Assembly (NCBI GenBank): GCA_965112155.1
Contig: OZ218106.1
Direction: 5' to 3' (one strand)
Source of the DNA: Podarcis liolepis
Taxonomy: Eukaryota
DNA length: 64,000 bases
Below are positions 322-61,670 of this stretch, piece by piece. The notes under the pieces are model-generated. The model saw only the letters and a list, made by a program, of their open reading frames with translations, searched no databases and was not told where the DNA came from. The first letter of the stretch is position 1, and the number at the start of each line of letters is the position of its first letter. A program made the translations under genes and the position numbers.

Positions 322-764
322 TCATGGAACTTTGAAGTGTCAGGCATAGCCCTACTGGCTTTAGCCCAAACGTAGCAGAGTTTTCCTGCACAGCGAGGAA
401 GCTAGTTGCAGCGGTAATGACTAGTCAGCTAGACTCAGAAGAACTATTTACAGGATTTATTAAAAAAGGGAAAAATAAAACCAGCAGAGTTTCTGCATAC
501 AAATAAAAGCAAAATAAATCCTCTCTTTCTCTCTCTCAAAACCATACACAGCACTTCTAACTCCTAACACACCTCACACCAAACTGAGCTAACAATCCCT
601 TGATAACAGAGTTGAGTGCTGGTCGTTAACCAATCAGAGTGAGTAGTTTCTAGGTCAAGCAGACCTGGGCTTTCTGCCAAGAGTAAATTGACACCAGCTT
701 GAGTTAATTGGTGAAGCTAGAATCTGCAAGTTTCCCACGAGAACCAATTAACAGAAACTGAACA
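322..764 (-). repeat. 3' LTR of the Copia element (443 bp)
   Basis: Direct repeat of 5016-5458; AATAAA (minus strand) at 456-461; preceded by the PPT and followed by TSD AATAA. Confidence 0.97.
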
Positions 765-771
765 CCCCCTC
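765..771 (-). other. Polypurine tract GAGGGGG
   Basis: Directly precedes the TG of the 3' LTR; typical Copia PPT ending. Confidence 0.85.
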
Positions 772-817
772 ACAGATTCTGCTGAACAATTAACTCCAAA
801 TACACCTATGTAGGAGA

Positions 818-4780: not shown

Positions 4781-5005
4781 CTTGAGAGCGATGTCCCTGG
4801 AACCCGGAACCAGCTACTCACGACCACCGAGAGAGAGAACAGGAACCACAGCACCCAGCACTCACACGCTGCAGCTGTTGTCCTTGTGTCCGCTGCGTCA
4901 CCAGCTCACCACGGTCAGGAACCAGCCAGGAACAACAACCTCTGGAACTACTGGAACCAACGCCGTTGATGCTGACACCACCGCAACTCAGGCTGGCAGC
5001 ACAAT

Positions 5006-5015
5006 GCCCATAACC
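5006..5015 (-). other. Primer-binding site GGTTATGGGC, complementary to the anticodon arm (nt ~30-39) of initiator tRNA-Met
   Basis: Immediately abuts the 5' LTR end; matches the start of the Drosophila copia-type PBS (GGTTATGGGCCCAG) and is the reverse complement of tRNAiMet GCCCAUAACC. Confidence 0.88.
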
Positions 5016-5458
5016 TCATGGAACTTTGAAGTGTCAGGCATAGCCCTACTGGCTTTAGCCCAAACGTAGCAGAGTTTTCCTGCACAGCGAGGAAGCTAGT
5101 TGCAGCGGTAATGACTAGTCAGCTAGACTCAGAAGAACTATTTACAGGATTTATTAAAAAAGGGAAAAATAAAACCAGCAGAGTTTCTGCATACAAATAA
5201 AAGCAAAATAAATCCTCTCTTTCTCTCTCTCAAAACCATACACAGCACTTCTAACTCCTAACACACCTCACACCAAACTGAGCTAACAATCCCTTGATAA
5301 CAGAGTTGAGTGCTGGTCGTTAACCAATCAGAGTGAGTAGTTTCTAGGTCAAGCAGACCTGGGCTTTCTGCCAAGAGTAAATTGACACCAGCTTGAGTTA
5401 ATTGGTGAAGCTAGAATCTGCAAGTTTCCCACGAGAACCAATTAACAGAAACTGAACA
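5016..5458 (-). repeat. 5' LTR of the Copia element (443 bp, TGTTCAG...CCATGA)
   Basis: Direct repeat of 322-764 with no differences seen by eye; AATAAA on the minus strand at 5150-5155; bounded by the TSD and PBS. Confidence 0.97.
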
Positions 5459-12500: not shown

Positions 12501-13639
12501 GGAAGAATAAATCAATACCTGTTTACAACTCAAAGAGGTTTAAAAATAAGAAATCCTTTTCCTATTATGTATGTTTCCTGACACCACAGATGCTGCTAAT
12601 TGTTATGCACATTTCAGACAGAGAAAGGAAATCACAAGGGGAGCAGATCAAGACTGTGAAACATATAAAAAACATGGTGCACATTAAAAGCAGCAGTCAA
12701 AATCCCCCCCTTCTCCTTCCCTCCTTTGTATAGCCCCTTTTTGTTTGTGTTGAGTTTTTGTTTGTGTGTGTGCACACACACGTGCGCGTTACAGTGCTGA
12801 ATAACTTCAAGGATGATAACTCAAAAACTATTTCCAAGAAGGAAGTGAATACAGCAGTTCACTGTTCTATACATTCCAGTTTTTAAAACATATGGGGTGC
12901 TTAACCCCCCACCCCCCAAAAAAACACCCTTAAGTATTGGAACTTGGTATTTTGGCCCTTAATTTTCTTCACTTAAATATACAACTGATAAATGCATTCT
13001 GCTACATGTGTGTATTTGTCTATCTACATGATTGTCCTGAGGGATATTACAGATGATGACCAGTTTATTAATTTCCAACCCTTCTGCAAGAATCTAAAAC
13101 CCCAAACTAAAACAGCCCTCTGCTGAGATGCTCTTTTGCATTTTGTCAAGGAGACAGCAACGGAGCATGGTCTCTTCACCTTTCCCCGTTTTCCCATTGA
13201 AATGACCTTTTCATTTGAGCATCGCAAATTGAAATGTATATCTGAGCCCTGTGAGATTTTTAGACAGCTGTTTTATGCTACATTTGAGTAGCAAAGAATC
13301 CCTCTGTTCCACACATTCATTACTTATAATTGAAAGCACATTTCCTTGAACTCCTTCGATGTCCAGAGCTTCTTAAATGGAATGCTACTTGCTCACTTTT
13401 TAAATACAGTGTTAACTTTCCCTGCATGCTTAATGATCTGCATTATTTATGTACCTTCAGGGGAAGGTGCATAAACTGATGCAAGGGGAGTGGTCCCCAG
13501 TTGCTGCAACTGCTCCATAGAGCACAAACCTGGGAATAGCTGCATAGATGCTATATTAGTGTGCGTAGGTCTCCAGAGCTATAGAATCTACTGTTATCTT
13601 TCACAATAAAGAGTTAACTTTCTGCCATGTGCATTCCTT

Positions 13640-14600
13640 GGCTGAGAAGCATCCTTGACACCAGGACAGAACCCTGTGCCACCCTACTTGTCACTTTTTT
13701 CAGGATGATGAGGAACCATCAGTGAGCACTCTTTAGGTTCGGTCAGTCATAAATCCACCTAACAGTTAGCTCATCTGCCCACATTTTACCAGCTTCTCTG
13801 CAAGAATATCAAGTGAGACTGACAAAAGCCTTACAGAAACCAAGATAAACTGCATTCGCAGCATTCCCCTGATCCACCAAGTTTGTAACTCTATCAAAAA
13901 GAGAAGTGTGATTTGTCTGGATGACTTGTTTTTGAGAAACCCGTGCTGGGATGTAGTAATCACATCATCCTTTTCTAAGTCCTCAAATACCAACTGTTTC
14001 GTGATCTGTTCTAGGACCTTTTCTGTAATGATGTCAAGCTGACTAGCCAGTAGTTACCTGGGTCTTTTTCAACCAAGGGATTTCACCCAGTAATTCCTTG
14101 AGCTTTTGAAAATCAACCTTCCTTGCTTTGTGTATAATGGAATCCCAAGAGGACAAGATCACTTCCTTCCAAGGTTGCCAGTACTTCCACTTTGTCAATC
14201 AGTTCCTTCAAAGTTCCTTCTTGTTGGTGATGATCAGGTCCAAGATGCTGTATATGATCTCCTTTTTCCACCTTCTGGGGAATGAAATTGTCAATGAGTT
14301 TGAGTTTAAACAGATATTGGGGTAGATGAAGTCTCCCATGACTTCTATACATCTCATTTTTGAATGTTTGGTCATTTCTCTAAGAAGGAATCATCCAAGT
14401 CTTCAGTCATGCTTGGCAGTCTACAGCAGACACCCACAGTAAGGTCACTGTTGTTTCCCCTCCCATATTTTTACCAGCACCATGTCTTGCACAGGACTGC
14501 TTTTTATGCATGGGTGTGCAGCCATCTTCTTTGAATATGTAAATGACTATCTAGAGTCTAGTTGGGAGTCAGCTTCATGTCTTCAGTCATTATATTTACA
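13640..14600 (-). mobile_element. CR1 LINE ORF2 internal fragments (endonuclease end and RT start), internally deleted and frameshifted
   Basis: Minus-strand peptides VITTSQHGFLKNKS (CR1 RT) and DNFIPQKVEKG...ELIDKVEVLATLEGSD (CR1 endonuclease C-terminus). Confidence 0.85.
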
Positions 14601-17600
14601 CAATTTTGCAGACGGTATGAGGGGACCTGCAGAAGACATCTCATATCTTGCAAACATAATGCAAAAACAAAGCCTCAATAGCTATTGATCTGAAGAACAG
14701 AATTCTGATCAGCTAGGATCTGCAGCCCGTGGAAAGGCTGAATGACTAGGGCTATGCTCAATTTTATTGAACTCTTCTAATTTCTTCCCTTCTTCCCTTT
14801 TAACTTTCTGTTTGCTTTCCTAATTATTGCCAGGTACAAAGCTGATGGTTTCAATTTGGGGTTCTTCATCACTGCCAGATCTTTCTTCTCTTTCCAATTG
14901 GCATCTGGAATCTGATTTATTAGTTAACTTGGGGAAAAACACATACTTTTGCATTATTAATCCATCCAACTTGGGCTTCTTTGTTTTTAAAGGAAGTTTT
15001 AGGCAAAAGGCAACAAGACCTTATTCTCTTGCATGTGATATACTTTGTCCTTAAAAAAAGGAGGATTCACGTGTCATCAACCACAACAAAAAAATGGTCT
15101 GATTTTCCAATGGAAAGTATTCTTTGTGCTGGTCTGTTGGTAGGGATCACAAAGATTTGAAGAAAGGTGAAACATGTAATCAGATGGAAGACTTGGAAAA
15201 GATAGCAAAAGAACAAACATGTCATTTTGCAAGCTTCATGCTGTAAGCTGTCTGTACATGTTTAAAATTTAAAGCAAGGGAACAAAACATTCAGAACACA
15301 GAAATAGTAGCAAGCATACTATTCTGTAAAGACAAGACAGCTGGGGACAGCAGTTCCAAAGCTATAATCTTCCCCAAGTATATCTAAAACAGTGTACTCG
15401 TTTTTTGGCTTTGACATTAACAAAGTGTAACAGTGATTCACTAAAAGTCTAGGCTTTGTTCTGAACTTCATTCAGCAGATTTTGCTTCATAGTGACAACA
15501 CAAGAAAGCAGTGTGCACAGAATATCAATCAGATAGTGACTTGGCACTTCTCATAATAGCTCAGAGATAAAAAATACTAAATTATAAACATATCCACTTT
15601 TGAAGAGCACAACCGATGCAGTTTTTCAGCATGGCTGCTTGAATTCAACCTTGTTCATGAAAAAATAACCATCTACCAGTTCTCAGATTTCATCAAATTC
15701 AGTCAAGGATATGGTCCTGCACTTAGTTCTGAGCTGCCTTCTAAATCTTAAACCCAAGTTCTTTGAATTCATGCTCAGAATATTTCAGCAGGTAACCACC
15801 TTGAGCAAGGTTTGTTCTGCCCTCAGATGTTAAAACTTTCATGCTTCTACTGGATTCTGGTTAGCCTTCAGCCAGAATCTCATAGTCATGCCCATGACAT
15901 TCTCATTGAAATAGTTCATAGTCAGGCCCAAGCAGCTACTTCGTCTTGAAGTATAGAATTTGATTACTTCTAGAATACATACAGCTCATCAGTCAACATA
16001 TTTTTCCTTCGTTCACAAACATTCCCATGGAGAAAGTCCTTCCAGAAAGAATCAACACCTCCTTTTACCTCTTTTCTCTTTCTTGCTGTATTATGTTCTT
16101 TGAACTCATCTGACCTTCTCCTATTTTGGGTTGCTAGCATGTTTGATGGTTCTGAGCTGGAAGCAGATTTAAAACTGTGGTACTCAGGGCTTCACCCTCA
16201 GAGCCTCAGGACTCTTCTTCAAGCCCCATCCTTCTGCAAGATACACCCTTCACTGGCCCTGCTCCATGCCCTCCTTGAGAGCTTCTGCCTGGCTGGGATG
16301 GCTTGAAAATTATAATCCCTGGAGAGAAAGGTGCAGGGTAAGGTATTGAAACTGCTGGATTTTGTAGCCTTTGCCTCTCGCCCCATCGACCAATGGCAAG
16401 TGGTCCCTAATGGAATGGGGGGGGGTCCTCTGCCCTAAAAAAACAACAGAAATAAAAGGGAATGGGGAGTGCTTATCATAGAAAGAATATTGACCTCTTT
16501 GTTGTTACCCCTTTCCCCCAGTCTCTGAATGTGAATTACTGTTGGTTTTGTAAAAAGAGGAGGGGATGAGGCTATCCCAACTGACTTCTCTAATAGAATA
16601 CAGTAATCCCTGATCTTACACAAGGGTCTGATGTCAAGGGTAACATATACAGGTGTCCCCCCTACCACTTATGCATGATTAACTCTCATACGACCGTGTA
16701 TACATGTGGTGCCAGGAAATAAATCAGTGATTCAATTCAAACCTGGAAATGGCGTGGGAAAGCTGGAAAGTCCCCATGACTCACAAGGAGACCCTCCCCA
16801 AGGCCTAAAGAGGACATCAGTGAGGCTGAGGAAGCCACAAAGAGACTGGAGGTGCATCAGGGCTTTGTTTAGGCTGCTCAGCCTCCCTGCCTAACAGGTG
16901 ATGCACATGGTGGTGCCACAGCAATAACCACTTTGCCGCGCATACTCCAGGCTCCAGAGCTGTGGATAATTTTGCATGCAGGGTTTTTGGTCTGGATTGG
17001 AGAGAGAGCAGCAGAGAGGGCAATTAATGGGTGTTTAGGGGGTGCTCCCCACTTATGTGATTTCTACTTACATGCACAGAGACCCAGAATGTAACCCCTG
17101 TGTAAATCAGGGAACACATATACATGCAAAAATCATTTGTGGTCAAACCCTTGGAGGCAGTTAGTGGGTGAAGGTGAGGAAAAGAGCATACCTGGCAATC
17201 CCAGAGATGGAGCAGCAAGCAAGGCGAAGAGCTTTAAGGCTCTTTTTGCATTGAAGCCACTTGGGTTAGCTGGCATGAAAGAGCAGTCAGCAGATTTTGA
17301 GCAATCAGCCTTGTTTGGGCACAAGGCAAGCTCAACATGCCAGCTCTGGAAGGCTAAGGATACTCACGCAATATCTCATGGGAAGGTACATTGAAGACAT
17401 GGAAGGAGACATGAAAGTTTTATCTGTGAGTGGTTGGTTTTTCACCTGTGATGGGCCACTCACATGTGCAAGTCATTGCTTGATGTTGCAGCCATCAAGC
17501 GATGGCCATGCTTGTGTGAACAGTGAATCAGGCAGGCCTTTGCATTCCATATTTTCAGAACAACCACAATGAGGTCAGCACCCTAACACTGAGTCTAGCT

Positions 17601-18774
17601 ACTAAGTTTTTTGCTTCCCCACACTGCCCCTGCATATATTTCATTGCCCGGACTCATTAAAATGTGAATGTCATTTCAAATCTAGAATACTAGGCACTTA
17701 CAATCTGTTTTGCCACACACAAATAAAAAGCCTTGCCCTTGAAATCCTGTGAGACTGAAAGCTTTTATTTTTTCCTGATAACAAGAGTAATTGGTGCCAC
17801 CCATGGAACTCTCTGGCGAGACTTGTAGGGATAAGGAAAAAGATAAAACATTCTACTTAATAATAAAAAACATACTTGGAATGTAATGAAAAACATGATT
17901 ATCACGGATACTGTACAGATAATTTACAACATAAGCAAAAATGTGTACATCATCTCTCTTTGTTGTTGTTTGGGACAAAATTTAAATAAACTGCATTTTC
18001 AAAGGAGTAATTGGTTACAGAGTGACAAGGAATCACTTTTCCCCCTTTTCTTCTCTTCATTTAATTGTGGGAAACTGCTGGGGAAATGTAGGTGTCAATG
18101 TCTGCCTAACAACACTAGGGCATGATTCTAAAAACCTGCTTTTGCAATGTCTGTGACTCCAAGGGTTAAAGTCCTTAATTTTGCCAGTTTTATTGACAGC
18201 TCCTTTGAACGTGAATAGGCAGCATTATTTGGTGGAAAGGAGGAGATGGGATCAGAAACAGTACGAGGTTCCACTTTCAAATGAACTGCGCTGGGATGAA
18301 TCTCCAGACTGCTAACGTCCTCTCTGTGGTTAAGCATCATTAAAAAGAAGTCATGTCTGTGTGAAAGGCAGCAGCAGCAGTGGGAGGGAAGCTGGCTGAA
18401 TACTCAGCAGCAGATTCCATTCCCATAGATATGGAAATAGAAAGAAAACATGACACAGGATGTTGTGGGCTACTCAGATGATTTGAGGCTGCTCAATTCA
18501 CAGGACTGTGGGCTCTGGTCTTCTAATAATATGCACTTAGAATGTATTTATCAGGAAGTCCATTTTGCCAAAAACATGAGCTGCCAATCTGCTTCTGCTT
18601 GCCACTGTCATAATATTATGATATTATGACAGTTTGGAATGTATTCTGTATGTAGTAAAACAGATGCACACTAAGAAGCTTCTTACATTTTTTTGTGGGG
18701 GGGGCACACACACTATCAGTTTGTTGTTCTTCAGGAACAAAAACAATGGGTCTGGTCACTTCTACACCATTAGC

Positions 18775-18878
18775 AGGCAGATTGCTGTCCCAGGATCCCA
18801 GAAAGCATGGCTAATGACCAGGGATAGTGAGAGTTGTAGGTCAGCAGCATCTGGAGGACCAAATGTTCCCCACACTTG
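18775..18878. mobile_element. URR1-like hAT MITE remnant
   Basis: GAGAGTTGTAGG...CATCTGGAGGACC...GTTCCCCAC terminus shared with copies at ~43885, ~46013 and ~60860. Confidence 0.5.
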
Positions 18879-20276
18879 ATGTAATGTACGCTTCATCCCA
18901 TGTTCCTGCCCTATGCTTTCTTTTCCTTACTTTCCTATCTTGATCTGAAGGGGGCTACTTTGCTTGCAGTCAATACTATAGCTTGAGCACAACCCAGCAG
19001 CAAAGCATAATGTGCTGTTCTTAAGCATACCTAATTCTGGGTGCATTCGGATGTTGGGAATATTGTGTTCACTTTCCTAATTATAAAGTTAGCTCCTCTG
19101 TCCCATTTTCTGATATTCCTTTCACACTGCAGTACCTTTTTGTGTTGTAGAACTGCAGCTTTTTAACTCATATTTCATGCTAAATTTCATTCACACCAGT
19201 AGGTGTGGTATGACACAACAATGAAGGACATCAGACCACATTGATACTCCTCCTCCATTTTCACACATGCATGTTTCTGCTCCCCCATGGTTGCCCCATA
19301 AAAACAGCAGGAAGGAACCTTATGCCGGTATACCACCCCAAATATTGTCATTTTACTCCCATAATCTTCTGGGTTAAGGGGGCTGCAAATGATTTTTTTT
19401 TCTGGAACAAAACAACAAGGACATCAGTGCTAAACATGCACTATATTCTATTAGCATTCCACAAGTGGCTTTTACATTGCATGAAAGTTCAAATATAATG
19501 CAGAAATTTACAGTTGGGGAAATGAAATAAACTGCCATGTGAATGCAGCTTATGTGAAGGAATGTGGCATTAAGGGGTTTTGAAAGCATTAAAGAAAGCA
19601 AACAGATAACACCTCTTCTACATTCATCATTGGAGATGCTGGGGGTGAGGTGCAGGATCACGATAGAGGCATACAAAGTTGAAATTTTGCAGCCACATTT
19701 GAGTTAGGTGAATTTTGCTTTATAATTTTTCCTACCAAATTCATTCATCTGCACTTTGGATCTATTCTGTTGGAAGTATAAATAATGCAGACCATTTTGT
19801 GACATCTTTGGCACTTTGTTGCTCTGAAAACACAGCCAACAAGCATCAACTTTCTGCACGGCAGACATAATTGTTTTTGTTGCTATTCTTCTCATCATCA
19901 TATGCACAGGGCAGCTTCACATCTGTACAGGCATATTGCCTTATTTATTCCACCTAAGTAACTGGAATAAATATCACTTGAATACATTGCCCAAAATAAA
20001 TGATCTAATTGCAGTCACTAAGCTGTTTTTCCTGTTCCCTTGCAGAAATACCCTTTTAAAGTCATCAATGGTCAAACTTTAGGTTACTACCCAGCTTGTC
20101 TCTTTAGGTATATGTCAGTGCTTCAGGGACCCCAATATGATATCCTGGTGTTCTACTGACTGCAATTCCTCATGCTGAATCAGAGACCACTCCTAAGATT
20201 ATCCTAAGTTTCGAGAGCAATTTGTCAGCTGTCAGATGGAACTGCTCTTGGAAGAGGGTCCACAGAGTTAGAAGGG

Positions 20277-20520
20277 CCAGGGACAGCTCAAGACATTTGG
20301 GCACCTGAGGCAAACCACAAAATGGCACTCCCTACCCACCAGAAAGAAGGGGTGAGTGAAGACCTACATTGGGAACAAGAGGGGAATAACGATCTAAACT
20401 GGAAACAAGAGGGAAGTGCAGTGGCAACAACAGCAGATGAAGCATTCCTTGGATCTGCTCCCCCTGTGGATCCTGCCACCTAAGGTGGCCACTTCACGTT
20501 GCTCATTGGTGAGCCAGGCC
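20277..20520. mobile_element. Degenerate hAT-Tip100-like MITE
   Basis: CAGGGACAGCTC...GCACCTGAGGC start and GCCACCTAAGGTGG...GAGCCAGGCC end; internal GGAACAAGAGGG duplication. Confidence 0.4.
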
Positions 20521-20929
20521 ATTTCACATGCATATTTCTCCACACAACCTTTGGATCATACGTTTGATTTTGAAAAAAAGAGTTTTCAAGAACATAAACA
20601 AGATGCATTTTAAGCTAATGAAAAAAGGAAACCAGTGGCAGTTGGGGGTCACTGGACCTGGGGGTGGGCTTGGTCACTGAGAAACTCTCATAGGCAGGAC
20701 CAAGAAGGTCAAGCTAGGATGTATGGGAAAATGAAATCAAGCCAAAGTTTCTATCACTGACAGTGGCCAACTTGATGCATTTGGACAGCTTACAAACAGA
20801 GCATAATGTTGACCATTGTTCCCTATGGTTCATCCAAGGCTTTTAAAGGTAAACACAAATATGCTTTTTCTTATTGGAGCCCTTTCTAGCTGCCATGGCT
20901 AGTAGCCATAATGATATATATCTTTAATG

Positions 20930-21155
20930 AATTTATTTATATTTATTACTTCTATATACTCTCCTTCCCCCAAACAGTTCAAGAAAATGTGCATGCTAAT
21001 CCTCCCCTACGTTCATTTTACCCTTAAAACAATGCTGTGAGGTATGTCAGGATAAGAAGGTAGTGACTATTCCAAGGTCACCCAATGAGCTTGTTCTTCA
21101 TGGCTGAGTTGGGATTCGAACCTGGGTTTGTCCAGTCTAAGCCTGTCACTCTGAC
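20930..21155 (-). mobile_element. CORE/MIR-like (Squam2-like) SINE
   Basis: AACAATGCTGTGAGGTA...GTGACTATTCCAAGGTCACCCA core followed by the reverse B-box GGGATTCGAACC. Confidence 0.65.
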
Positions 21156-24100
21156 CAGGGCACTTCATTACACTTTGATAAGCCCCCTGTGCTACTGGCT
21201 GACCATTATGACAGAAAGTACTTTTGTCTTTCATAACCCACTTCTAATCACCTTCACTGAAAAAAATCCAAATTCAGGAATTCGTCCCTGTGAAATTACT
21301 AAATTGCACTCTTACTGGTACTCTGGTTACAATAAACCCTTTCCACATGGCCTTTAGTCACTCATGCATGTGATGTCCATTACAAACTACACTACTAATG
21401 CACTGGAGAAAGAAAGAGGAAGTACGCCATGCACACACTTACATAATTTTTGGTGAAAGCAAGCCACAATGACTTTTAAATTAATCCCAACACTAGGCAA
21501 ACAGTAGTATGGGACATATATGTTGGTTGGAATTCTGGCAGCAGAAGCATTCTGCTTGCCCAGCTGAATGGCCTTTCCTCCTTCTCCATACACATACATA
21601 CACACTGTTCTGGGAGATCTCCCAACCCTTCTGAGAAAATTTGGAGAATACACAGAGGTGACAGGGGGAGAAGCATATTGCCCTAGCAGGAGTCCTTGAG
21701 CTAGTGGAACAGGGTAGCTGAATCTGGCCTGCTAGCAGTGAATGTTGTCAAGGTACATAACACATCTTTACAGCCTCAGGGGGTGACATTCCACTGTGGC
21801 AACCCATTTGCACAATATGTGCAATATTTCTAGTCTTGTTCATAGTTTAGGGCAACAGCTGAACCCTAATCTTGAGCTTGCAAGCAATGTTGTGCAACCC
21901 CTAGCACTACTACTACTACTCTCAGTGGCAGTTAAGTCTGTGCACTACCACTTGCTCAAATACTTGCGCAACTCTGACTCCTTGCACTAATGTTTCACTG
22001 GATTTTACTTAGTGGGTCCGGACCTGTAAACTGCCCAGATAGATATTACCTGAATGTATGAAGTTGATTAATATTTACTTATCTGGCCCACTGGTCTGTC
22101 TAGTCTAGGATTGTCAATTCTGGTTGGTAGTTGCTCTCCGCGATTGCTCTCCAAGATTTTTCTCAGCTCCACCAGCTTTTAACTAGAGAAGTTGGTAACT
22201 AAGCCTCCATGTACAACATGAACTCTGCCTCTGAGACCAGAACTAGACAATCACATGAAAAGTGTGATTACATTTCATATATTTGTTGTTATTCAAAATG
22301 AAAATAACAACCAGATCATGTCCCTCTCGCCCCACCACACAAGCACACACATACGCCATAGTCCTCCCCTACCAAGCTGCTATTTGCCCTGGGAGTGGGG
22401 CAGAAGTTTCCCTAAGTTGTTTCTTGGAGCTTTCCTCCCATGAGGGAACAGTGGCTTCCTTGAGATCACAGCATGGAAGAAAGGTTTAAATCCTGCCTCC
22501 CAATACAAGTGGTGGCTGCCCCCACAGATTCAAGTGCCCCCCTTTCTAGGGCTGCTATTTTTGTTCAAAAACAGCAGATGCAAAATAAAATATGCACTTC
22601 ACGTATCATTTAGCTTGGCCCTGCGCTATGACTGACAACCATATGCAAAGCTGTTGAAGGAACAGTGGGGAGGATCTATGGTAAAATGCATTCAAATTTT
22701 CAAAATAACTGACTGACTATTTGAAAAGAGGGAGCCTAAAATCATACAAGCCAAAAAAAGAAATCCTTTTTTCCCCCAACCTGTAATCATCTGCTTACAA
22801 CGTCTCGGGATTCACAGTGCATCAGCTATTAACCATACCATGATCAGATTTGGGCCACATCTGTGTTCAAGTATTATTATTATATTATTATATCATTCAA
22901 GCTGAAATGGATGCATGTCAAGAGGAAATACTGGGCCTCATGAACCAAATTCTAGTTGGGTGTATGAGTTCGCAATGCAGAATTGTGTTTTTAAACTATC
23001 ATGTTAACAAAAGTTTGCTGTACTTGATGGGTTGGATCCAACCTCTGTTTGCAGAAGGGGCTGAGATCCAGTGGAGACAACTGTTGGTGGAAGAAAATGT
23101 TATCTACCAGTTCCCCATTTCATCCCTTTCACACTGTGCTAGCAGAACTCCCAACCCTCTGGGTCATTTTTTCAAGGGTCAATTGGGCCAGGGTGGGGTT
23201 AAGCAGTTGACAATAATTCCTTTCCCCCTCCTTTCTCTGGTAGCAGGGTCTACACATGGAAACTCTATTTTCAACTCATTGCGCTTAATTGCCACCAAGC
23301 ACAGCAACATCTTTGGATAGATTTTGCAACAGAAGAAAGCATTATAGAAGAAATGACAATTTTTTAAAAGAAAAAATAGCAATTTCAATCACGACTTTGT
23401 ACCCAATATCCCTATGCAGATGAGACAGCAAAATCAAACCAGTATCCCAGCTCTTCAGGTAGAGATGAGGTACCACGCTGTTTCATTTTGACAGAAAACA
23501 GCACTTTTCTATTTTTAGTGGCAAGTGTCTTTAAATGAATCATTAACATTGGAAAGCTGATGTGAACCGAGCTGAAAAGCATACTAAAATGTGCCTCAGG
23601 CATGTTTTTAAATTAAACAGATTATTTTCTCATCCTCATTTTCTCTAGTGTCTGGCAGTTATGGATGAAGTGATAAAGGAATTGTCGCTAAATTCTTTAA
23701 AAAGAAGGAGGGAAAAAAACCTGGCCACTAAAGCAATAATGTGAAACTCTGCTCTGTAGCTATGCATTGCCATCTCAAATCCCCCCCCCCAATTCCATGC
23801 TTTGTCTAGGGCGCTATTTCACAGCAAAGGGTGATGATGAAGAGATAATAGACCCTCTGAGGAATGGGGGAACCCTAAGAATGCCCTTTCTACAGTACTA
23901 GTCCTTTTTAATTTCATGGCTGTTGTATTATTGCATAGAGTTCTCACCACCGGCCATTGATTACGCTCACAGGAGTGTACCATTAATACTGGTCACTCCT
24001 GTATGCAAAACAATAAGCACACACATTCTGCCTAAAACTGAGCAGCTCCTGTGGGTCATTTGAGTGTGTTTCTTTTCTTATTACATGAAGTTTGAATTCA

Positions 24101-34513: not shown

Positions 34514-34562
<49 letters not shown>

Positions 34563-34659
34563 TATTTATACACTGCCTGGGTTTCCCCAGCCACTCTGGG
34601 CGGCTTCCAACAAAATATTAAAAATACATTAAAACATCAGTCATTAAAAACTTCCCTAA
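34514..34659 (-). mobile_element. L2 LINE 3' terminus with (AAT)n tail
   Basis: (AAT)~16 followed by CCCCAGCCACTCTGGGCGGCTTCCAA...CTTCCCTAA, closely matching 58184-58290. Confidence 0.85.
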
Positions 34660-48170: not shown

Positions 48171-49960
48171 CTGGAGAATAGTTAAACTGTCCAAAAACAC
48201 AGTAGCTCTTCAGCTTTCACTGGATACATATTAGCAACTACTGGCTCTCCAAAGCATTGCTGGAGGCATGGGGAGGCAATGAAGTACCGTAGGTGTATCC
48301 CATAGCTGCTGTTGCCTCATCTTTCAGAATAATTTGATGAATAGGAGAAGTAGAGGCCACACATTGATGACGTCACATACCGACTCTCCTGATGATCCCA
48401 CTTGAAAGTCTCATGTAGATACTTAAAAATATCAGGGGCCTTGAGGAACATAACAATGTATAGTCCTTCAGAACACCATTGCAAGGTTGATATGGACAAA
48501 GGAAAAACAGTTTCCATTACCACTTTCTGGAAACGACTATGAAAATAAGAAGAGAAGGTATCTGATTCCTCTTCCAGAAATCTTGTCCAAAAGTAAACAA
48601 TGGTTAATAATATCAAATGCTGTGAAGAGGTTCAGAATTAGTGCCCTAGGAGAAGGACCCAGCCACGACGTTCTTCTCTTAGTGTACATCAGGAGAACCA
48701 AGGCCAAACCTAGGCCTGAAATCAAACTGAAATTGACCTGGTAGTCCCATAATTGTAGAAATGCCATTATAAATTTCTGATAAGGGAGAGGCATTTTCCT
48801 GGAGAAATGAGTCTGTATCTGCTCAGGTGGATTCATCAAAGGGCATGTAATCACCAACTTATGTGAATTAAATAGCCACATTTTAGGAACTACTGTTTAA
48901 TCAAAAGGTTGTGTTTCCCTCATTACATGCTACATTAACCATATTTGAAAGAAACGACACACAAAAATCCATTGGAGAAAATGGTCTCTAGACTATATGT
49001 CCTGCTCTTGCTGCTAGGCTTTGACAAAAGCTTCCAATGTTTAGAACTATAGCTGTTACCATGGCATGGTACAAACGCCCCTATTCCCTTTTGTAAGAAA
49101 TTGTAAGATACTAACAGGTTGCCCAATGTGAGAAGTGAAATGGCAATACACACTGCACAGCACCGACATATTAGGAGGACATTTCCTATGTCATGCTGAG
49201 CTCAAACATTGGAATGAGCATCCTCGTCACCTGATTCAGCATATGCCCCAGGGTTTTCCATTTCCTTCAACCAATGCCAATATCCTTGCCAGTGGTCCTA
49301 ACCCCTAAGTCGCAATGAAATGAACCTGTTTCAGCCATTTTGTGTTGTTTTTGAGTTGTGAATATTGTTTTAGAGACTATTCAGACAACATAGGGGAGTC
49401 CAAAATTCAGCCCACAAAACTGGGCCTTAAGGAGAAACTGAAACCTAAGGATAATAGGAACAGAACTATATGGGTTTTCTGAATGGCTGGTAGGCTGGAT
49501 GGGGGAGTAGAAATGATGTGTATAAATGAGGCAGATGAGTAGAGTTAAAGCATTGTTGTGGGGAGAAGTTGTAATCTGAAGAAAAGATGCAAAATTTGAT
49601 CTTTTCTGAGTCACCAAAAATGGAAATGTAGTTATGTTTAACAACACAATACTCCACATCTAAATGTAACAAATTGCATTAAAAGTATAGTATAACATAT
49701 GTTTAGAAGTGCATACACTGAGATGAAATGCATATGCTAAATGCATATATGCGATAAAATATGAATTTAAATATGGTTTTTTTTTTGTTCTTTTATAAAA
49801 TGTAGATTGATGTCAAAATGGGAATGGACTTAAGAACGAGCTCATGGAAAATGAATACAGACTGGTTGTCTGTATAATGTATTTCTCTCACTTTGGACAG
49901 GGTAACTTGAACTTCCTGCTCCATTCAGGTATGATTGTATGCTTGGCAATAGCTAATCAT

Positions 49961-50248
49961 AGAATCATAGAATCATAGAGTTGGAAGAGACCACAAGGGC
50001 CATCGAGTCCAACCCCCTGCCAAGCAGGAAACACCATCAGAGCACTCCTGACATATGGTTGTCAAGCCTCTGCTTAAAGACCTCCAAAGTAGGAGACTCC
50101 ACCACACTCCTTGGCAGCAAATTCCACTGTCGAACAGCTCTTACTGTCAGGAAGTTCTTCCTAATGTTTAGGTGGAATCTTCTTTCTTGTAGTTTGGATC
50201 CATTGCTCCGTGTCCGCTTCTCTGGAGCAGCAGAAAACAACCTTTCTC
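49961..50248 (-). mobile_element. Young 5'-truncated CR1 LINE with TSD
   Basis: (ATTCTATG)n tail; intact ORF2 C-terminus [52 protein letters not shown]; TSD CTAATCAT at 49953-49960 and 50249-50256. Confidence 0.95.
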
Positions 50249-50924: not shown

Positions 50925-51116
50925 AGAATCATAGAATCATAGAATCATAGAGTTGGAAGAGACCACAAGGGCCATCGAGTCCAACCCCCTGCCAAGCAGG
51001 AAACACCATCAGAGCACTCCTGACATATGGTTGTCAAGCCTCTGCTTAAAGACCTCCAAAGAAGGAGACTCCACCACACTCCTTGGTAGCAAATTCCACT
51101 GTCGAACAGCTCTTAC
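50925..51116 (-). mobile_element. Second young 5'-truncated CR1 LINE with TSD
   Basis: Only 2 substitutions seen versus the 49961 copy over ~170 shared bp; TSD TATCAT at 50919-50924 and 51117-51122. Confidence 0.95.
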
Positions 51117-52524
51117 TATCATCTTAAGACATTTTCAGTCAAGTGAGTTCATTATCTACACACCAAATATTAATGTCCACTGACTCTAAACCAAAGTCTT
51201 TTGACAGATCTGTGTGAATCTTCTGGGGGGAAAGTGTGAATTAACATCCTTAGGCATAAAAAACGGTTTCTAGCATAAAAATGTCAAACTTAAATGCTTT
51301 GTCTTTTTTGTTATATTTACAGTCTGCCTCTGAAAATAAATTCATTTTCAGGGCTCTGCAGTAGAATCTCCCTGTTTTGGAATTTTAATTGTTACGGACA
51401 GAATGGATCAACTCAGGGAAACTTTAAACTACAAATCTGAGAAGCCACCGTTTTGTTGTTGGCAACACAAGAGGAACTTAAAGATAGTTCCTCTGCTCTC
51501 TCCAGCCTAACCTATGACTTATTCCCTCCTGTCCTTATTGTATGGGACATTTGTAGAAAGGAGAGTCAAAGGAAAATGGTGTAGTGTAGGCTAGGCTGGG
51601 TGGCTACCACAGAGGAAGTTTCTGAATGTATCTGGCGACTGAGCTTCTTCTGGAATTCCTTTCCAAACAGAGACTGGGAAAATTGGTAAATGGATCTAAT
51701 CCACTACAGCTTCTGCAGTTGTTGATTCTAGCGGACTTTTAAAAACAGGATAAGATAAACAAAATCAATATGAATGTTGCCTTTGAACTTGCTGTTTGAA
51801 ATATGTGGTCCCCCAATTTAATTATCTAGCCATGGAAGAAATTCATAAATTGGAATAAAATCCAAGGGTAGCTGGCCCAGCAAATAAGGTTTCTGTTATG
51901 GGTGAGGAAGCACAATTGAGAAGAATGTCTCCACAGTTACAACCCATCTAACATCTGACTGCCAGGACACCTGAAATGAAGGCCTCTGATGGAAATCTTA
52001 ATGCACAGGCAGTTTGGTGTAGGGTAGAGGCAAACGTTATTTCAGGCACCATGGCCCCAAGCCATATAGGGCTCTGATGTAAGTACCAGCATTTTGAAGT
52101 GTGCTTTAAAGCAGACCACGCTCTCCAAGCCAGGCAAGGATTTGGAATTGCTCATGTGAAAGGCAGCTGCTTCTCTTCTTTTCCTTTTCTTTCCCTGCCT
52201 CCTGCACCTGCAAAGGCAATTTTCATTTTGAACACAGCTGTTTTGTGTAATACCAGTTCTGTGCAGAAGAGCTGTTTTAAAAATAAATATAGCTGCATCC
52301 TTTCATTCTGGCTGATGGGAACAAAATGGTGTAGCAATACAGGGTATCCAGTGAAACATCACCACACATGTGTTCATTGTGGGTGATTTTTGTTGTTGTT
52401 TTTTTGCTAAATACATACTAAATTTGCTTCAGTGCATCCACAATTGGGTAACATCCATCCTTCTTGGAGGAGTGTGCCAATGCAGGTTCCCCAATGCCCT
52501 AAAAGATACATCCAATGTTTCCTT

Positions 52525-56540: not shown

Positions 56541-56730
56541 AGAAACATAGGAAGTTGTCTTCTGCTCAGTCAGACCGTTGACCAATCACACTAAGTAAGT
56601 CTATGCTGACTAGCATCAGCTATCCAGGGTTGCAGGTGAGAGACTCTTACAGCCCTTACTGGAGCTGTGAAGGGTTGAACCTGAGGCTGTGTGCCTGCAG
56701 AACAGATGCTCTGCCACTGAGCCACAGCCC
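56541..56730 (-). mobile_element. Squam3-like SINE
   Basis: AACATAGGAAGTTG tail; GGGTTGAACCTGAGG...TGCTCTGCCACTGAGC. Confidence 0.55.
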
Positions 56731-58134
56731 AGTAGGTTCCATCTTATGAAAAGGGGATTTCTATGAAAATGCAGATCAAGTGAACCATGAAAGCAATCAT
56801 ACTGCAAACTGTTGGTGATCATTTTGGGCGAGGGGGGTGGATACTATTAAAGTTGTGTCAAAAGCAAATTAGTTACAGTTGTTGAAAATTATTTGGAAAT
56901 GTCAAGAATGCAGGTCTTTTGTTGACTCTGAAAAGGCATTTTCCATCTGGCTCCAAGCATAAAAATATCCTGAAGTGACCTGCATATGTGAAGGCTCACT
57001 TGAATAAATGATAATACAGTACTGCTATGGGATAACATAAGCCCATTCACGGTGGGCTCCATCCAATAGAAAATTCCATCTGAAGTTGGGACAGAATCCC
57101 AAGTCATTGAAATGTAATTATGCCTGCTAGAAAGTTCCTGCAGAGAATGTAGATGCAGAGCAAATGGCACTGTTAATGAAATTGGGTCTGCTTTCTCCAT
57201 CATAATTTGTTTTGCACTAAGAATAAAAGCTAAAATTGCTAAAATTAAATCCCAGCAAAAGATTAACCAATGCAATGCAATAAGCTGTTTATGTGAACTA
57301 AAGTTAATGAAACTGATACTTACCAATAGCAGTAAACAGGAGAAAGAGGGAAAAGCAGCAGCATCAAGGCATATTTTCGCCTCATTGTTGTATTAAATTG
57401 TTTAAAGCCAAGACATATAATCTCCTAAACAGCATATATAGTAAACACCTATAAAAAGCAGCATTTAATAAAAGCTAAGAAATATAGTTATGGCTTTCAT
57501 AACTGATTTTAAGATGCCTCCAAGAAAATTAAATACTTGTTCTTCATTATCGTATAATAGCAGTGTTGCACATAGCTGGAACCCTGCACAATTTTTAAGA
57601 AAACTGAAGCAGCCATTTCAGCCCAGTATCTACAGTCCAGCATCCAGTAACTTTTTCAGTCTGTTGATACTCAACTCAGGTTAGATATTATGTGTCATCA
57701 TGGAAATTTTGTGTCTTCTGGAGAATAGTCATACATTGTATCTAATGGCAATGGATGTAAAGGGCAGTCACGGAGAGAGAGGGAATTCTCAAACTTTTGA
57801 TATAAAGTTAAACGCATCTGTTATATTGACAATTCATTGACTACAGGTTTTCATGGTTTTCTAAAAACGTTTTATATCTTTGTGCATTGATAGCTTATGT
57901 GCGGAAAGAATATAAATACTTCTATAAGTAAATGAATAAAATACTAAGGAATATCCAGTGCTTCTTTTCTAAAAAAAATGTTTAAGGGGTACTCTCATTT
58001 TCCTACTCATATTGAAATACTGCCCCTCAATGAGGCCAAACTTAGATCCACAAAATGTTTAGGGGTATGTGTACCCCTGCGTCTCCCCAGAAAAAAAGCA
58101 CTGGGAATATCTACTAAGATGGAGATAGAGCAGC

Positions 58135-58135
<1 letters not shown>

Positions 58136-58184
<49 letters not shown>

Positions 58185-58904
58185 TTATTTATACCTCGCC
58201 CATCTGGCTGGGCTTCCCCAGCCACTCTGGGCGGCTTCCAAAAAAATATTAAAATACTGTAATACATCAAACATTAATAGCTTCCCTAAACAGGGCTGCC
58301 TTCAGATGTCTTCTAAAAGTCTGGTAGTTGTTGTTATCTTTGACATCTGGTGGGAGGGCATTCCACAGGGCAGGTGCCACTACCGAGAAGGCCCTCTGCC
58401 TGGTTCCCTGTAACTTGGCTTCTCGCAGCGAGGGAACCGCCAGAAGGTCCTCGGTGCTGGACCTCAGTGTCTGGGTAGAACGATGGGGGTGGAGACGCTC
58501 CTTCAGATATACTGGACTGAGGCCGTTTAGGGCTTTAAAGGTCAGCACCAACAATTTTAATTGTGTTCGGAAACGTACTGGGAGCCAATGTAGGTCTTTC
58601 AAGACCAGTGTTATATGGTCTCGGCAGCCGCTCCCAGTCACCAGTCTAGCTGCTGCATTCTGGATAAGTTGTAGTTTCCAGGTCACCTTCAAAGGTAGCC
58701 CCACGTAGAGCGCATTGCAGTAGTCCAAGTGGGAGATAACTAAAGCATGCACCACTCTGGCGAGGCAGTGTGCAGACAGATAGGGTCTCAGCCTGCGTAC
58801 CAGATGGAGCTGGTAGACAGCTGCCCTGGACACAGATTTGACCTGTGCCTCCATGGACAGCTGTGAGTCCAAAATGACTCCCAGGCTGTGCACCTGGTCC
58901 TTCA
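58136..58904 (-). mobile_element. Relatively young 5'-truncated L2 LINE with (TTA)n tail
   Basis: Uninterrupted 212-aa ORF2 C-terminus (58267-58905) with SLGVILDSQL, HALVISHLDYCNALYVGLP, LQLIQNAAARLV, HITLVLKDLHWLP and RAFSVVAPALWNALP; (AAT)16 tail at 58136-58183. Confidence 0.95.
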
Positions 58905-59925: not shown

Positions 59926-60474
59926 TCAGTATAATGAAACTACCCTAAAATCACACACACAAAAATATTAAGCACATTTTCTACTTTTGGATTTTATGGA
60001 GCTAAACAGACACCATTCTGTGTAACATATTGAGTGATAGTCATCTGTTACTCAGAGTAGACCTATTGAGATTAATGAACATGATTGCATCAAGTCCATT
60101 CATTTCAGTAGGTCTTCTTTAAGTAAAATACAATGGAATGCCTTTCGTTCTCCCCAACAGGTAAATAAATACTGACTGACAATTCCCAGATAATAGGGGT
60201 AAAATAAAGTTTTCCGAAGGTGTGGTCTCACTGTGTGCTTCTCTAAGGAAAGCTACAACCACTCCTTTCTTTCAAGGATCTGCTTACAGTAGATCTTATG
60301 ACACCAGCCATTTTCATGCTCCCTTCCTAAAGCTAGCCATCACTACCCATGGGATGTAAAGATCCAGGATAACTGTGTGGCCAACTGTAGATAGGTAGCC
60401 GTGTTGGTCTGCCATAGTCAAAATAAAAAAATTCCTTCCAGTAGCACCTTAAAGACCAACTAAGTTAGTTCTTG

Positions 60475-60512
60475 GTATGAGCTTTCGTGTGCATGCACAC
60501 TTCTTCAGATAC
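60475..60512 (-). ncRNA. Minimal type-I hammerhead ribozyme motif (copy 1)
   Basis: GUAU-CUGAAGA-A-GUGUG(CAUG)CACAC-GAAA-GC-UC-AUAC: stem I GUAU/AUAC, catalytic core CUGANGA and GAAA, stem II, palindromic AGCU stem III and UC cleavage site. Confidence 0.85.
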
Positions 60513-60531
60513 CCAACTAAGTTAGTTCTTG

Positions 60532-60569
60532 GTATGAGCTTTCGTGTGCAAGCACACTTCTTCAGATAC
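60532..60569 (-). ncRNA. Minimal type-I hammerhead ribozyme motif (copy 2)
   Basis: Same as copy 1, with loop II CUUG. Confidence 0.85.
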
Positions 60570-61670
60570 ACTGAAACAGAAGTTGCCAGATCCTTCTATA
60601 TAGTGAGAAGGTGGGGAGGGGTGTTACTGAGAAGGGTGGTGGGAATGGGAGATAGGCAGATAGCTGAGAGAGCCTCTTGACGACTCTTAACGACTGTAAT
60701 AGGTCTTACAGGAAAAGGCAAGGGGTGGGAAGGTGGGAAATGGTATAGTTATGTATAGTGAGATAAGTCATGTACAGCTCCAAGTCATGCTATCCACAAC
60801 TTCAGTAGAGTGATGCACCAGGTTCAGATCCACAAAAGAATGCTGAGACCTCATCATTCTAAGGATGATGGGAGCTGTAGTCTGACAATACCTGGAGGGT
60901 CACAGGCTCCCAATCCCTGGTTTAGTGGATCACAAACAGTGCTGATAACTTTAGGGAAGTCAAGTGATACAACAAATCCATATTATCTATGGATAAGAAG
61001 TTTCTTAGACCTTCAGCTTTGTAATCAACTGTGGGTAATGGAACACTACAGTAGTCTGTTGTTTTTTAACTCCCAGAGTGATGTAGTGGCGGTTTACTAT
61101 AGTGTGATCCCATTAATACCAAGGACTGCACAAGTGTAACTGGACATTGTATAGGTGTCAAGACAGCATAATTTATTTTTGATAATACCCCATTTTCCAT
61201 TGCCTAGTCACTTGGCTGTTGAAAAGATCAATAATGGTATATAATTTTTATGAGTGGGTTTTCTTATTATCTAGTTAAATTCAAAGAGAAGTTAACTCAG
61301 GCTTGAAACATTATAGTGGTGCAGAGTAAGCAATACCAAGAGGGAAGAAAATCCTAGTGAGTGTGGAGAACAAGCTCTCATGAATACACATCTACAAAAA
61401 GAGCACAATTTAACACTGATTGCTATGATGGCTCAAGGGTACGCAGCAATGTTGAATTATTATTACACATTGTGGAATTTTTATTTGGCTTGCCAAAGTC
61501 TGTAGAGCACAGCTGATCTCCCTAATGTGAAACTGTCTGGCAGGCATATTTTTATTCTTACAAAACTTTTACTACTTAAAATGTCATTTCTTTTCCTTTG
61601 TTCCAAACATTCTGCCATTGTGCCTTATTTGATGACGTAGACCAACCTGGTACCATTCAAATGTATAGAC

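What the first reader, a model, noticed from the sequence alone, without database searches (positions are those of the whole stretch)
60456..60569. Tandem pair of minimal hammerhead ribozymes able to form a cis 'double hammerhead' and excise a 57-nt RNA
Seen: a 57-bp direct duplication, each unit containing on the minus strand a complete hammerhead core (GUAU-CUGAAGA-A-stem II-GAAA-GC-UC-AUAC). Stem III is only the palindrome AGCU, which cannot fold within one unit. The single difference between the units is in loop II, so all helices and core bases are intact. Known: Penelope-like elements carry minimal hammerheads that self-cleave as dimers via palindromic stem III, and tandem HHR repeats (newt satellite 2, non-LTR retrozymes) yield monomeric or circular RNAs. 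Inference: this local duplication places two cores 57 nt apart so they could dimerise in cis and cleave after 60536 and 60479. That would release a 57-nt unit, a possible seed of a retrozyme-like satellite, or cut any minus-strand host transcript passing through.
Basis: partly seen in the sequence, partly recalled or inferred. Interest (0 to 1): 0.72.

Follow-up and report, generated by a model that had tools for sequence, protein, structure and literature searches.

The report
Duplicated hammerhead in young retroelement copy
A recently inserted fragment of a very abundant jumping-gene family carries two copies of its normal self-cutting RNA motif side by side; such pairs are already known, and this one is predicted to misfold rather than cut itself efficiently.

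Summary
The 57-bp tandem (60456-60569, one mismatch) and both minimal hammerhead cores are real. They lie inside a 385-bp insertion (60386-60770) bounded by a repeated TGTA. The site is empty in 3 of 3 genome-sized contig sets laid, including the closest one, so the insertion is young. It belongs to a family with 11,000-24,000 matching contigs per run. The anatomy fits the terminal repeat (pLTR) of a Penelope-like element, although no linked ORF could be tested. The duplication ends at the hammerhead's 5' edge, where many family copies end or join another copy, which suggests a reverse-transcription restart. The cis double hammerhead is geometrically possible, and the 19-nt linker is no obstacle. 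In ViennaRNA, however, the two palindromic stems II pair with each other into a rod about 16 kcal/mol more stable, and an upstream hairpin sequesters one core. One RNA library from a relative shows no reads on the flanks. Short tandem pLTR hammerhead repeats (51-972 bp, reptiles included) are already catalogued as retrozymes, and 8 of 9 tested dimers did not cleave. Verdict: new member of a known kind, probably nearly inert.

The parts
60386..60389 (+). Left copy of the 4-bp target repeat TGTA. Its last three letters may instead be the element's own 3' end (priming microhomology).
   Evidence: Empty-site joint 60385->60771 with 4 letters fitting both sides in X1, X3, X4; boundaries printed; an X1 joint re-enters the family sequence at 60387 (table 5c)
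60390..60455 (-). 3' tail of the element, AC-rich at its end; shared by most family copies
   Evidence: Highest depths of the stretch, loose ends before 60389-60392 in all 4 runs; last 30 nt are 10 A, 10 C, 5 G, 5 U
60456..60512 (-). Unit B (downstream on the RNA): complete minimal hammerhead plus 19-nt linker; predicted cleavage after 60479
60513..60569 (-). Unit A (upstream on the RNA): complete minimal hammerhead plus 19-nt linker; predicted cleavage after 60536
60487..60500 (-). Stem II of unit B, a perfect 14-nt palindrome; one arm of the competing rod
60544..60557 (-). Stem II of unit A, 13 of 14 complementary to that of unit B; other arm of the rod
   Evidence: inverted repeat I1; cross-pairing probability 0.73-1.0 in three contexts
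60480..60483 (-). AGCU palindrome of unit B (positions 15.1-16.1), half of the shared stem III
60537..60540 (-). AGCU palindrome of unit A, other half of the shared stem III
60561..60575 (-). Upstream hairpin that pairs the flank with the CUGAA core of unit A
   Evidence: Pair probabilities 0.46-0.95 in two contexts; also in the MFE
60570..60770 (-). Upstream part of the same repeat family (rest of the pLTR-like region), 5'-truncated at 60770; no open frame of note
   Evidence: Depth 1e5-2e6 over 60559-60747, falling to 3e3-5e4 in the last bin; RNA reads run from 60512 straight into the 60570 sequence and 83 reads skip exactly 57; six-frame translation
60771..60774 (+). Right copy of the target repeat TGTA

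Best explanation
This is a young, 5'-truncated copy (about 325 bp of family sequence) of the hammerhead-bearing terminal repeat of a very abundant Penelope-like retroelement in a reptile-like genome, in which the 57 bp beginning at the hammerhead's 5' edge are duplicated. SHOWN: the insertion and its bounds, the empty site in relatives, the high-copy family, the single-unit form as the family norm, and copy ends and copy-to-copy joints at the hammerhead's 5' edge. INFERRED: Penelope-like identity (no ORF link tested). INFERRED, about 45% on its own: the duplication arose during target-primed reverse transcription, when the enzyme reached the usual stop at that edge, re-primed 57 nt back or on a second family RNA, and then ran on for 201 nt. 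PREDICTED: if transcribed, the RNA folds mainly into a rod. The two stems II pair with each other, both cores keep a swapped stem I, and the two AGCU palindromes sit at opposite ends of the helix, so stem III does not form in cis. Cleavage is then weak or absent without protein help, and the locus is most likely a neutral passenger.
For: Empty site 60385->60771 in 3 of 3 contig sets (X1, X3, X4), at depths 70.1, 25.7 and 49.8 that equal the flank depths. X1 differs from the window at 0 of 253 left-flank and 2 of 130 right-flank positions. 23,602, 11,303 and 18,891 contigs were laid, with depth 4-5 orders of magnitude above the flanks over most of the insertion. Loose ends behind 60513 in 60 contigs of X1 and 51 of X4 have consensus agreement of only 0.36-0.37, meaning unrelated flanks. 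X1 joints lead from 60512 and 60515 back to 60387-60389, i.e. head-to-tail partial tandems joined at the same edge. Summed depth over the two core bins is 3.7-4.8 times that of the upstream bin 60586-60612 in the three contig sets. The core has the published extra nucleotide after position 9, G10.1-C11.1, palindromic 15.2-16.2 and a short helix I. It closely resembles the turtle motif in the supplement of PMC4209133, with a compensated change in stem I. Stem II start to 3' end is 111-114 nt, against RT starts 111-118 nt into the ORF, which begins at stem II, in the anole element PAc. Rod versus double hammerhead: ensemble gap 16.1 kcal/mol at 37 C and 17.2 at 28 C, and cross-pairing wins as soon as 60494 is transcribed. 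Published: minimal dimers and trimers cleave weakly, 8 of 9 Xenopus dimers not at all, and the PAc hammerhead only with protein.
Against: No RT/GIY-YIG ORF could be linked to this family (no genome held), and the turtle motif is not marked as PLE-associated in its source. The folding model gives a gap of at least 12.7 kcal/mol for all 16 loop dinucleotides tested, so it would penalise any short tandem of this motif, and I had no active dimer to calibrate it; Mg2+ and tertiary contacts are not modelled. For the bare tandem the barrier favours the double hammerhead kinetically (4.8 vs 14.2), and strand invasion in nascent RNA has barriers of 8.3-12.7 kcal/mol, so a co-transcriptional window is not excluded. 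The upstream part carries letters that are rare in the family (e.g. 60629: the other letter in 1,096,033 of 1,098,940 depth in X1), which points to a distinct source copy that might already have held the duplication. The RNA library is from another organism label whose DNA run lacks the insertion, only about 12% of it was read, and a 57-nt RNA would be lost in such a library.
Confidence: 0.68

Rival explanations
1. One reading: the tandem folds into a cis double hammerhead, probably co-transcriptionally or with the element's protein as chaperone, and releases a 57-nt RNA with 5'-OH and cyclic-phosphate ends that can circularise.
For: All core bases and helices intact; nested double hammerhead feasible, with inner stem I extended by the linker hairpin. 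Barrier from local hairpins 4.8 kcal/mol in the bare tandem. The predicted 57-nt circle folds into a closed minimal hammerhead. One of 9 Xenopus dimers was highly active, axolotl dimers cleave better than monomers, and protein activates the PAc hammerhead.
Against: Equilibrium share about 5e-12 bare and 5e-13 in the whole insertion. Upstream hairpin sequesters core A. Zero RNA depth in 13 of 13 unique-flank bins and no begin/end pile-ups in X23 (a weak test). Cleavage in vitro is more plausible (about 25% for any detectable product) than a real in vivo product.
Confidence: 0.12
2. The duplication was already in the source copy: a small subfamily with a doubled hammerhead is being mobilised, and this locus is one offspring.
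For: Several letters in 60570-60770 are rare in the family (60629, 60676, 60728, 60736), more than the 2 of 383 flank differences to X1 would supply after insertion.
Against: None of the long pieces listed spans the 60512|60513 junction with 31 letters on both sides (24 rows shown; 55,128 more hidden), so there is no positive sign. The unit-A loop letter appears to exist in single-unit family copies, which a two-template jump explains as well.
Confidence: 0.22
3. The duplication arose at DNA level after insertion, by slippage or repair near the two palindromes, like the SINE-derived satellites of squamates.
For: Tandem repeats from parts of SINEs are reported in 56 squamate genomes (abstract of PMC10702118). 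The unit holds two inverted repeats.
Against: No in-register microhomology at the duplication ends. One end coincides exactly with the family's preferred copy edge. The insertion is young, yet the units already differ.
Confidence: 0.2
4. The duplication is an assembly artefact inside a real repeat insertion.
For: It lies in a very high-copy repeat and was seen in no independent record.
Against: The units differ by one base, and contigs placed on unit A in X1 include a large share without the unit-B letter (701k of 1,260k depth have T at 60551), so the unit-A letter looks like a real family variant rather than an error. The insertion has clean target repeats.
Confidence: 0.07

Closest known systems
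Minimal hammerheads (min-HHR) in pLTRs of metazoan Penelope-like elements (Cervera & de la Pena 2014, PMC4209133; Lunse et al. cited there and in PMC6765202, not read)
   Same: Type I core, extra nucleotide after position 9, G10.1-C11.1, no stem III insert, palindromic 15.2-16.2, 4-bp helix I, huge dispersed family; very like the painted-turtle motif in the supplement.
   Different: Two cores only 57 nt apart inside one truncated copy instead of about 3 kb apart in flanking pLTRs; stem II is itself a 14-nt palindrome; no ORF link tested.
Vertebrate non-LTR retrozymes as defined by Li, Clavereau & Pollet 2026 (bioRxiv 10.64898/2026.07.22.740005)
   Same: Tandem of at least two units, each with a complete type I hammerhead; unit length within their 51-972 bp range; derived from a pLTR; reported in 4 of 5 reptiles.
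   Different: Here the dimer is still embedded in its parent copy on both sides and its register starts at stem I, not at the cleavage site. No sign that it moves as a unit.
Expressed non-LTR retrozymes of coral, mussel and axolotl; newt satellite 2 (Cervera & de la Pena 2020, PMC7229834)
   Same: Tandem type I hammerheads; amphibian ones need the dimer.
   Different: Those have canonical hammerheads with loop 1-loop 2 contacts, 170-400-nt units and abundant linear and circular RNA. None of this is present or shown here.
PAc, Poseidon element of Anolis carolinensis (Frangieh et al. 2024, PMC11167929)
   Same: Hammerhead about 110 nt from an AC-rich 3' end; partial-tandem copies; no RNA-seq ends at the cleavage site.
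   Different: Sequence not compared (GenBank supplement unreadable); no ORF starts at stem II here; clade of this family undetermined.

Membership tests
PLE minimal hammerhead (min-HHR) | Conserved core C3-A9, G12-A15.1, U16.1-H17 | tested here: met
   Both units
PLE minimal hammerhead (min-HHR) | Unpaired nucleotide between 9 and 10.1; G10.1-C11.1 pair; helix I of 4-5 bp | tested here: met
   against the description
PLE minimal hammerhead (min-HHR) | No stable stem III; palindromic 15.2-16.2 | tested here: met
   AGCU only
PLE minimal hammerhead (min-HHR) | Self-cleavage as a dimer | not testable with these tools
   Folding only; model disfavours the cis dimer
Penelope-like element | RT plus GIY-YIG endonuclease ORF next to the pLTR in full copies | not testable with these tools
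   No genome held; this 385-bp copy has no such ORF; pattern scans found no related loci
Penelope-like element | Dispersed, mostly 5'-truncated copies with a shared 3' end and short target duplication or microhomology | tested here: met
   Depth profile, loose ends, empty site with TGTA
Penelope-like element | Partial head-to-tail tandems | tested here: met
   Go-back joints to 60387-60392 in X1 and X3 at other loci (table 5c); feature described
Penelope-like element | 30-40-bp optional tail | tested here: inconclusive
   Loose ends before 60419 mix indel variants and possible ends
Non-LTR retrozyme (operational definition, Li et al. 2026) | Tandem repeat with at least two consecutive complete type I hammerheads, motif MFE below -5 kcal/mol | tested here: met
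   unit MFE -8.9, 43-nt core -7.6; their pipeline itself was not run
Non-LTR retrozyme (biological sense, Cervera & de la Pena 2020) | Canonical type I hammerhead and unit of about 170-400 nt | tested here: not met
   Minimal hammerhead, 57-nt unit
Non-LTR retrozyme (biological sense, Cervera & de la Pena 2020) | Free-standing array mobilised as a unit | tested here: not met
   Both ends continue in register into the parent family sequence
Non-LTR retrozyme (biological sense, Cervera & de la Pena 2020) | Expressed as linear and circular monomer RNA | tested here: inconclusive
   One standard RNA library of a relative lacking the insertion: no flank reads, no pile-ups, no go-back joint among the 15 joints shown, 36 hidden

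The most novel reading that the evidence does not exclude
This polymorphic insertion records a retrozyme being born in one step: the reverse transcriptase restarts at the hammerhead's 5' edge, a family-wide hot spot, and doubles the ribozyme at almost the smallest possible period. The 57-nt product would be among the smallest self-processed circular RNAs. The tandem would also be a natural switch between a domain-swapped rod, with both cores pre-formed and able to dimerise only in trans, and a cis double hammerhead reached co-transcriptionally or with the element's protein.
Probability: 0.1. Interest if true: 0.6.

Novelty: new member of a known kind. Interest (0 to 1): 0.27.

Why it matters
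As it stands it is one rearranged copy among a very large number, and the general idea (pLTR hammerheads giving rise to short tandem retrozymes) is in print. Its modest value is as a dated, empty-site-verified example that separates two routes of retrozyme birth: reverse-transcription restart versus later DNA duplication. It is also a 114-nt natural construct for testing why most minimal-hammerhead dimers cleave poorly: stem II swapping is a concrete, testable cause. The clustering of copy ends at the hammerhead's 5' edge, rather than at its cleavage site, bears on the open question of what these ribozymes do in Penelope-like transposition.

Tried and rejected
Rfam scan of the whole window: no hammerhead family among 12 matches at E<=5. 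No genome was held, so other arrays of the 57-bp unit could not be searched; within the window there is no other family copy. Pattern scans: metagenome contigs 0 and 0; viral contigs 0 and 2; prokaryote genomes 10 and 2. Of these 14 loci, 12 match only over 18-21 nt, one gave a 13-nt match and one none, so all were rejected as chance. Run search: no RNA holder listed, not used as evidence. Only 4 of the 24 listed runs could be laid. Pfam scan of 45 of the 156 stop-to-stop frames of at least 75 aa found only a Copia-type polyprotein and two sub-threshold matches, so no host gene was identified; short exons would be missed. The sigma-70 promoter/terminator scan found nothing and is irrelevant to an animal genome. 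Rejected: that the element starts at the hammerhead (60570-60770 is family sequence); that the 19-nt linker is too short (it closes inner stem I with probability 0.86-0.99); that the dimer came from rolling-circle copying of a 57-nt circle (register and continuous flanks do not fit). A splice-like arrangement (donor-like 60709; AG at 60572-60571) had no supporting RNA joint among those shown. The primary paper on PLE hammerhead dimers (Lunse et al.) was not held. Two supplements of PMC11167929 gave no sequence. Earlier scan findings: none for this sequence or genome; 8 shown of 225 on other genomes did not bear on this locus.

Full report
1. Observation. The tandem is real in the window: 60456-60569, period 57, two copies, 98% identical. 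On the minus strand each unit carries a 4-bp stem I, the CUGAAGA core, one extra A, stem II, GAAA, GC, UC and the other stem I strand, followed by 19 nt. The only difference is at unit position 19 in loop II, and the predicted cuts follow 60536 and 60479. My descriptor found these two sites only; 97 of 100 shuffled windows gave none and 3 gave one. Rfam returned no hammerhead family among 12 matches at E<=5.

2. What it sits in. No genome is held, so I laid 4 of 24 listed runs on 60100-60900. Three are genome-sized contig sets (X1, X3, X4; only X4 is labelled as probable DNA) and one is a raw RNA library (X23). All three contig sets show a joint from 60385 to 60771 that skips 385 bases with 4 letters fitting either side. 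Its depths (70.1, 25.7, 49.8) equal the flank depths, so these samples carry the empty site; contigs can drop rare alleles. The four letters are TGTA at 60386-60389 and 60771-60774. X1 differs from the window at 0 of 253 left-flank and 2 of 130 right-flank positions, against 7 of 286 plus 1-2 of 130 for X3 and X4. The insertion is therefore recent and possibly polymorphic. Over most of it the summed depth is 1e5-8.5e6 and 23,602, 11,303 and 18,891 contigs were laid; this is not a copy number but shows a very large family. The family's normal form has one hammerhead: 83 RNA reads skip exactly 57 bases, and reads leaving 60512 continue with the 60570 sequence. So the tandem is an internal duplication in a copy of about 325 bp.

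3. Family identity. The core has the features listed for minimal hammerheads of Penelope-like elements in PMC4209133 (main text parts 1-3 of 4 read; supplement part 1 of 3 and a term search). It closely resembles the painted-turtle motif there, with the same core, stem II start and AGCU-type palindrome and a compensated change in stem I; that entry is not marked as ORF-associated. The copies share a 3' end at about 60387-60392 and thin out upstream, and X1 and X3 show go-back joints to that end, i.e. head-to-tail partial tandems, as described for these elements (passages of PMC8557442; PMC3846280). Stem II lies 111-114 nt from an AC-rich 3' end. In the anole element PAc the ORF begins at stem II and reverse transcription starts 111-118 nt further on in an AC-rich stem-loop (PMC11167929, parts 1-2 of 4 read). 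This is consistent but may be coincidence. I could not link the family to an RT/GIY-YIG ORF, so membership is inferred and the clade is open. That the host is a lizard-like reptile is my recall of its repeat types, not a test.

4. How the duplication arose. Its upstream end is the first base of stem I. Many family copies end there: loose ends behind 60513 in 60 contigs of X1 and 51 of X4 have agreement of only 0.36-0.37, and X1 has joints from 60512 (depth 285.9, 8 letters between) and 60515 back to the family's 3' end. Depth over the core is 3.7-4.8 times that of a bin upstream, although divergence of this copy upstream may add to that. There is no in-register microhomology at the duplication ends. 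At 60551 only 701k of 1,260k depth in X1 shows the unit-B letter, against 339k of 363k in X3, 359k of 434k in X4 and 144 of 150 reads in X23. The unit-A letter thus seems to be a family variant in organism A; other letters may be hidden among 104 rows not shown. The simplest reading is that reverse transcription stopped at the usual edge, re-primed 57 nt back or on a second family RNA, and ran on. Template jumping is established for the R2 enzyme (abstract of PMC8857657), not shown for this family. Against this: the upstream part has letters rare in the family (60629, 60676, 60728, 60736), so the duplication may come from a distinct source copy. Later DNA-level duplication, as for SINE-derived satellites in squamates (abstract of PMC10702118), and an assembly artefact remain open, because no independent record spans the junction.

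5. Would it cleave in cis? The double hammerhead is a nested structure: outer stem I (A 5' with B 3'), stem II of A, shared stem III, inner stem I (A 3' with B 5') closed by the linker hairpin, stem II of B. The linker is no obstacle. But stem II is a 14-nt palindrome in B and 13 of 14 complementary between units. The minimum-energy fold is a rod (-33.7 kcal/mol) in which the stems II pair across units; the double hammerhead scores -18.2, an ensemble gap of 16.1 at 37 C and 17.2 at 28 C, with stem III probability 0.0. The rod keeps both swapped stems I (0.70-0.99), so both cores are pre-formed but lack stem III, and the two AGCU lie at opposite ends. In prefix folding the cross-pairing reaches probability 1.0 at 60494, before B's hairpin or AGCU exists. 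With native flanks an upstream hairpin pairs with core A (0.46-0.95), the barrier to the double hammerhead is 17.2 and its escape barrier 5.8. Published behaviour is mostly weak: low activity of dimeric and trimeric minimal hammerheads (review passages), 1 of 9 Xenopus dimers active, and protein-dependent cleavage, dispensable for insertion in vitro, for PAc.

6. Expression. In X23 (about 12% read, 1,629 reads laid, 1,569 only partly fitting) depth is zero in the 13 unique-flank bins, family reads lie in both mate directions, and no place has a pile-up of ends. This library is from organism C, whose run X4 lacks the insertion, and it would lose a 57-nt RNA, so the test is weak. No host coding exon was found in 45 of 156 frames scanned.

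7. Comparison and novelty. Li, Clavereau and Pollet 2026 (bioRxiv, parts 1-3 of 5 read; supplements closed) define retrozymes as tandems with at least two complete type I hammerheads. They report units of 51-972 bp in 4 of 5 reptiles and propose that a pLTR end gives rise to them by local amplification. This locus meets that operational definition. It fails the biological one of PMC7229834 (passages read): minimal rather than canonical ribozyme, 57-nt unit, still embedded in its parent, no RNA shown. It works like a PLE hammerhead dimer on paper and is a new member of a known kind. What is particular is the verified empty site, the coincidence with the family's copy edge, and the predicted stem II swap.

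8. Verdict. Observation confirmed; interpretation partly supported. Best explanation 0.68; functional cis excision in vivo about 0.12; interest 0.27.

Noticed in passing
window 322-5458, minus strand: Intact Copia-type LTR retrotransposon: two 100% identical 443-bp LTRs (322-764, 5016-5458), one 1330-aa frame with gag, integrase and RT Pfam matches, apparent 5-bp target duplication AATAA, and LTR ends TG...GA rather than TG...CA. Very recent insertion.
   Followed up: partly
window 60512/60569 edge, family-wide: Family copies end or join other copies at the first base of hammerhead stem I, not at the cleavage site. Cause unknown: RNA start, splice site or RT stop.
   Followed up: partly
window 60570-60585 and 60709, minus strand: An acceptor-like pyrimidine-rich CAG ends at 60571, one base before stem I (read; it fell just under my threshold), and a donor-like GTAAGA starts at 60709. 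In D. virilis Penelope the intron ends at helix I. No RNA joint supports splicing among those shown.
   Followed up: partly
window 60561-60575, minus strand: Upstream family sequence pairs with the CUGAA core, a possible built-in off state of the single-unit ribozyme too.
   Followed up: partly
window 49955-50149 and 50927-51121: Two 195-bp copies, 98.5% identical, each following an 8-bp ATCATAGA-type tandem; probably 3' ends of a young LINE (family name not tested).
   Followed up: no
window 34514-34659 and 58137-58289: Two copies (86%) of an (AAT)n-linked interspersed repeat.
   Followed up: no
window 56660-56731, minus strand: tRNA-like match just under the Rfam threshold (28.8 vs 29 bits), probably a SINE head.
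   Followed up: no
window 60353-60360 and about 60863-60900: X1 has no depth at 60353 (local variant beside the empty site); another high-copy repeat begins near 60863.
   Followed up: no
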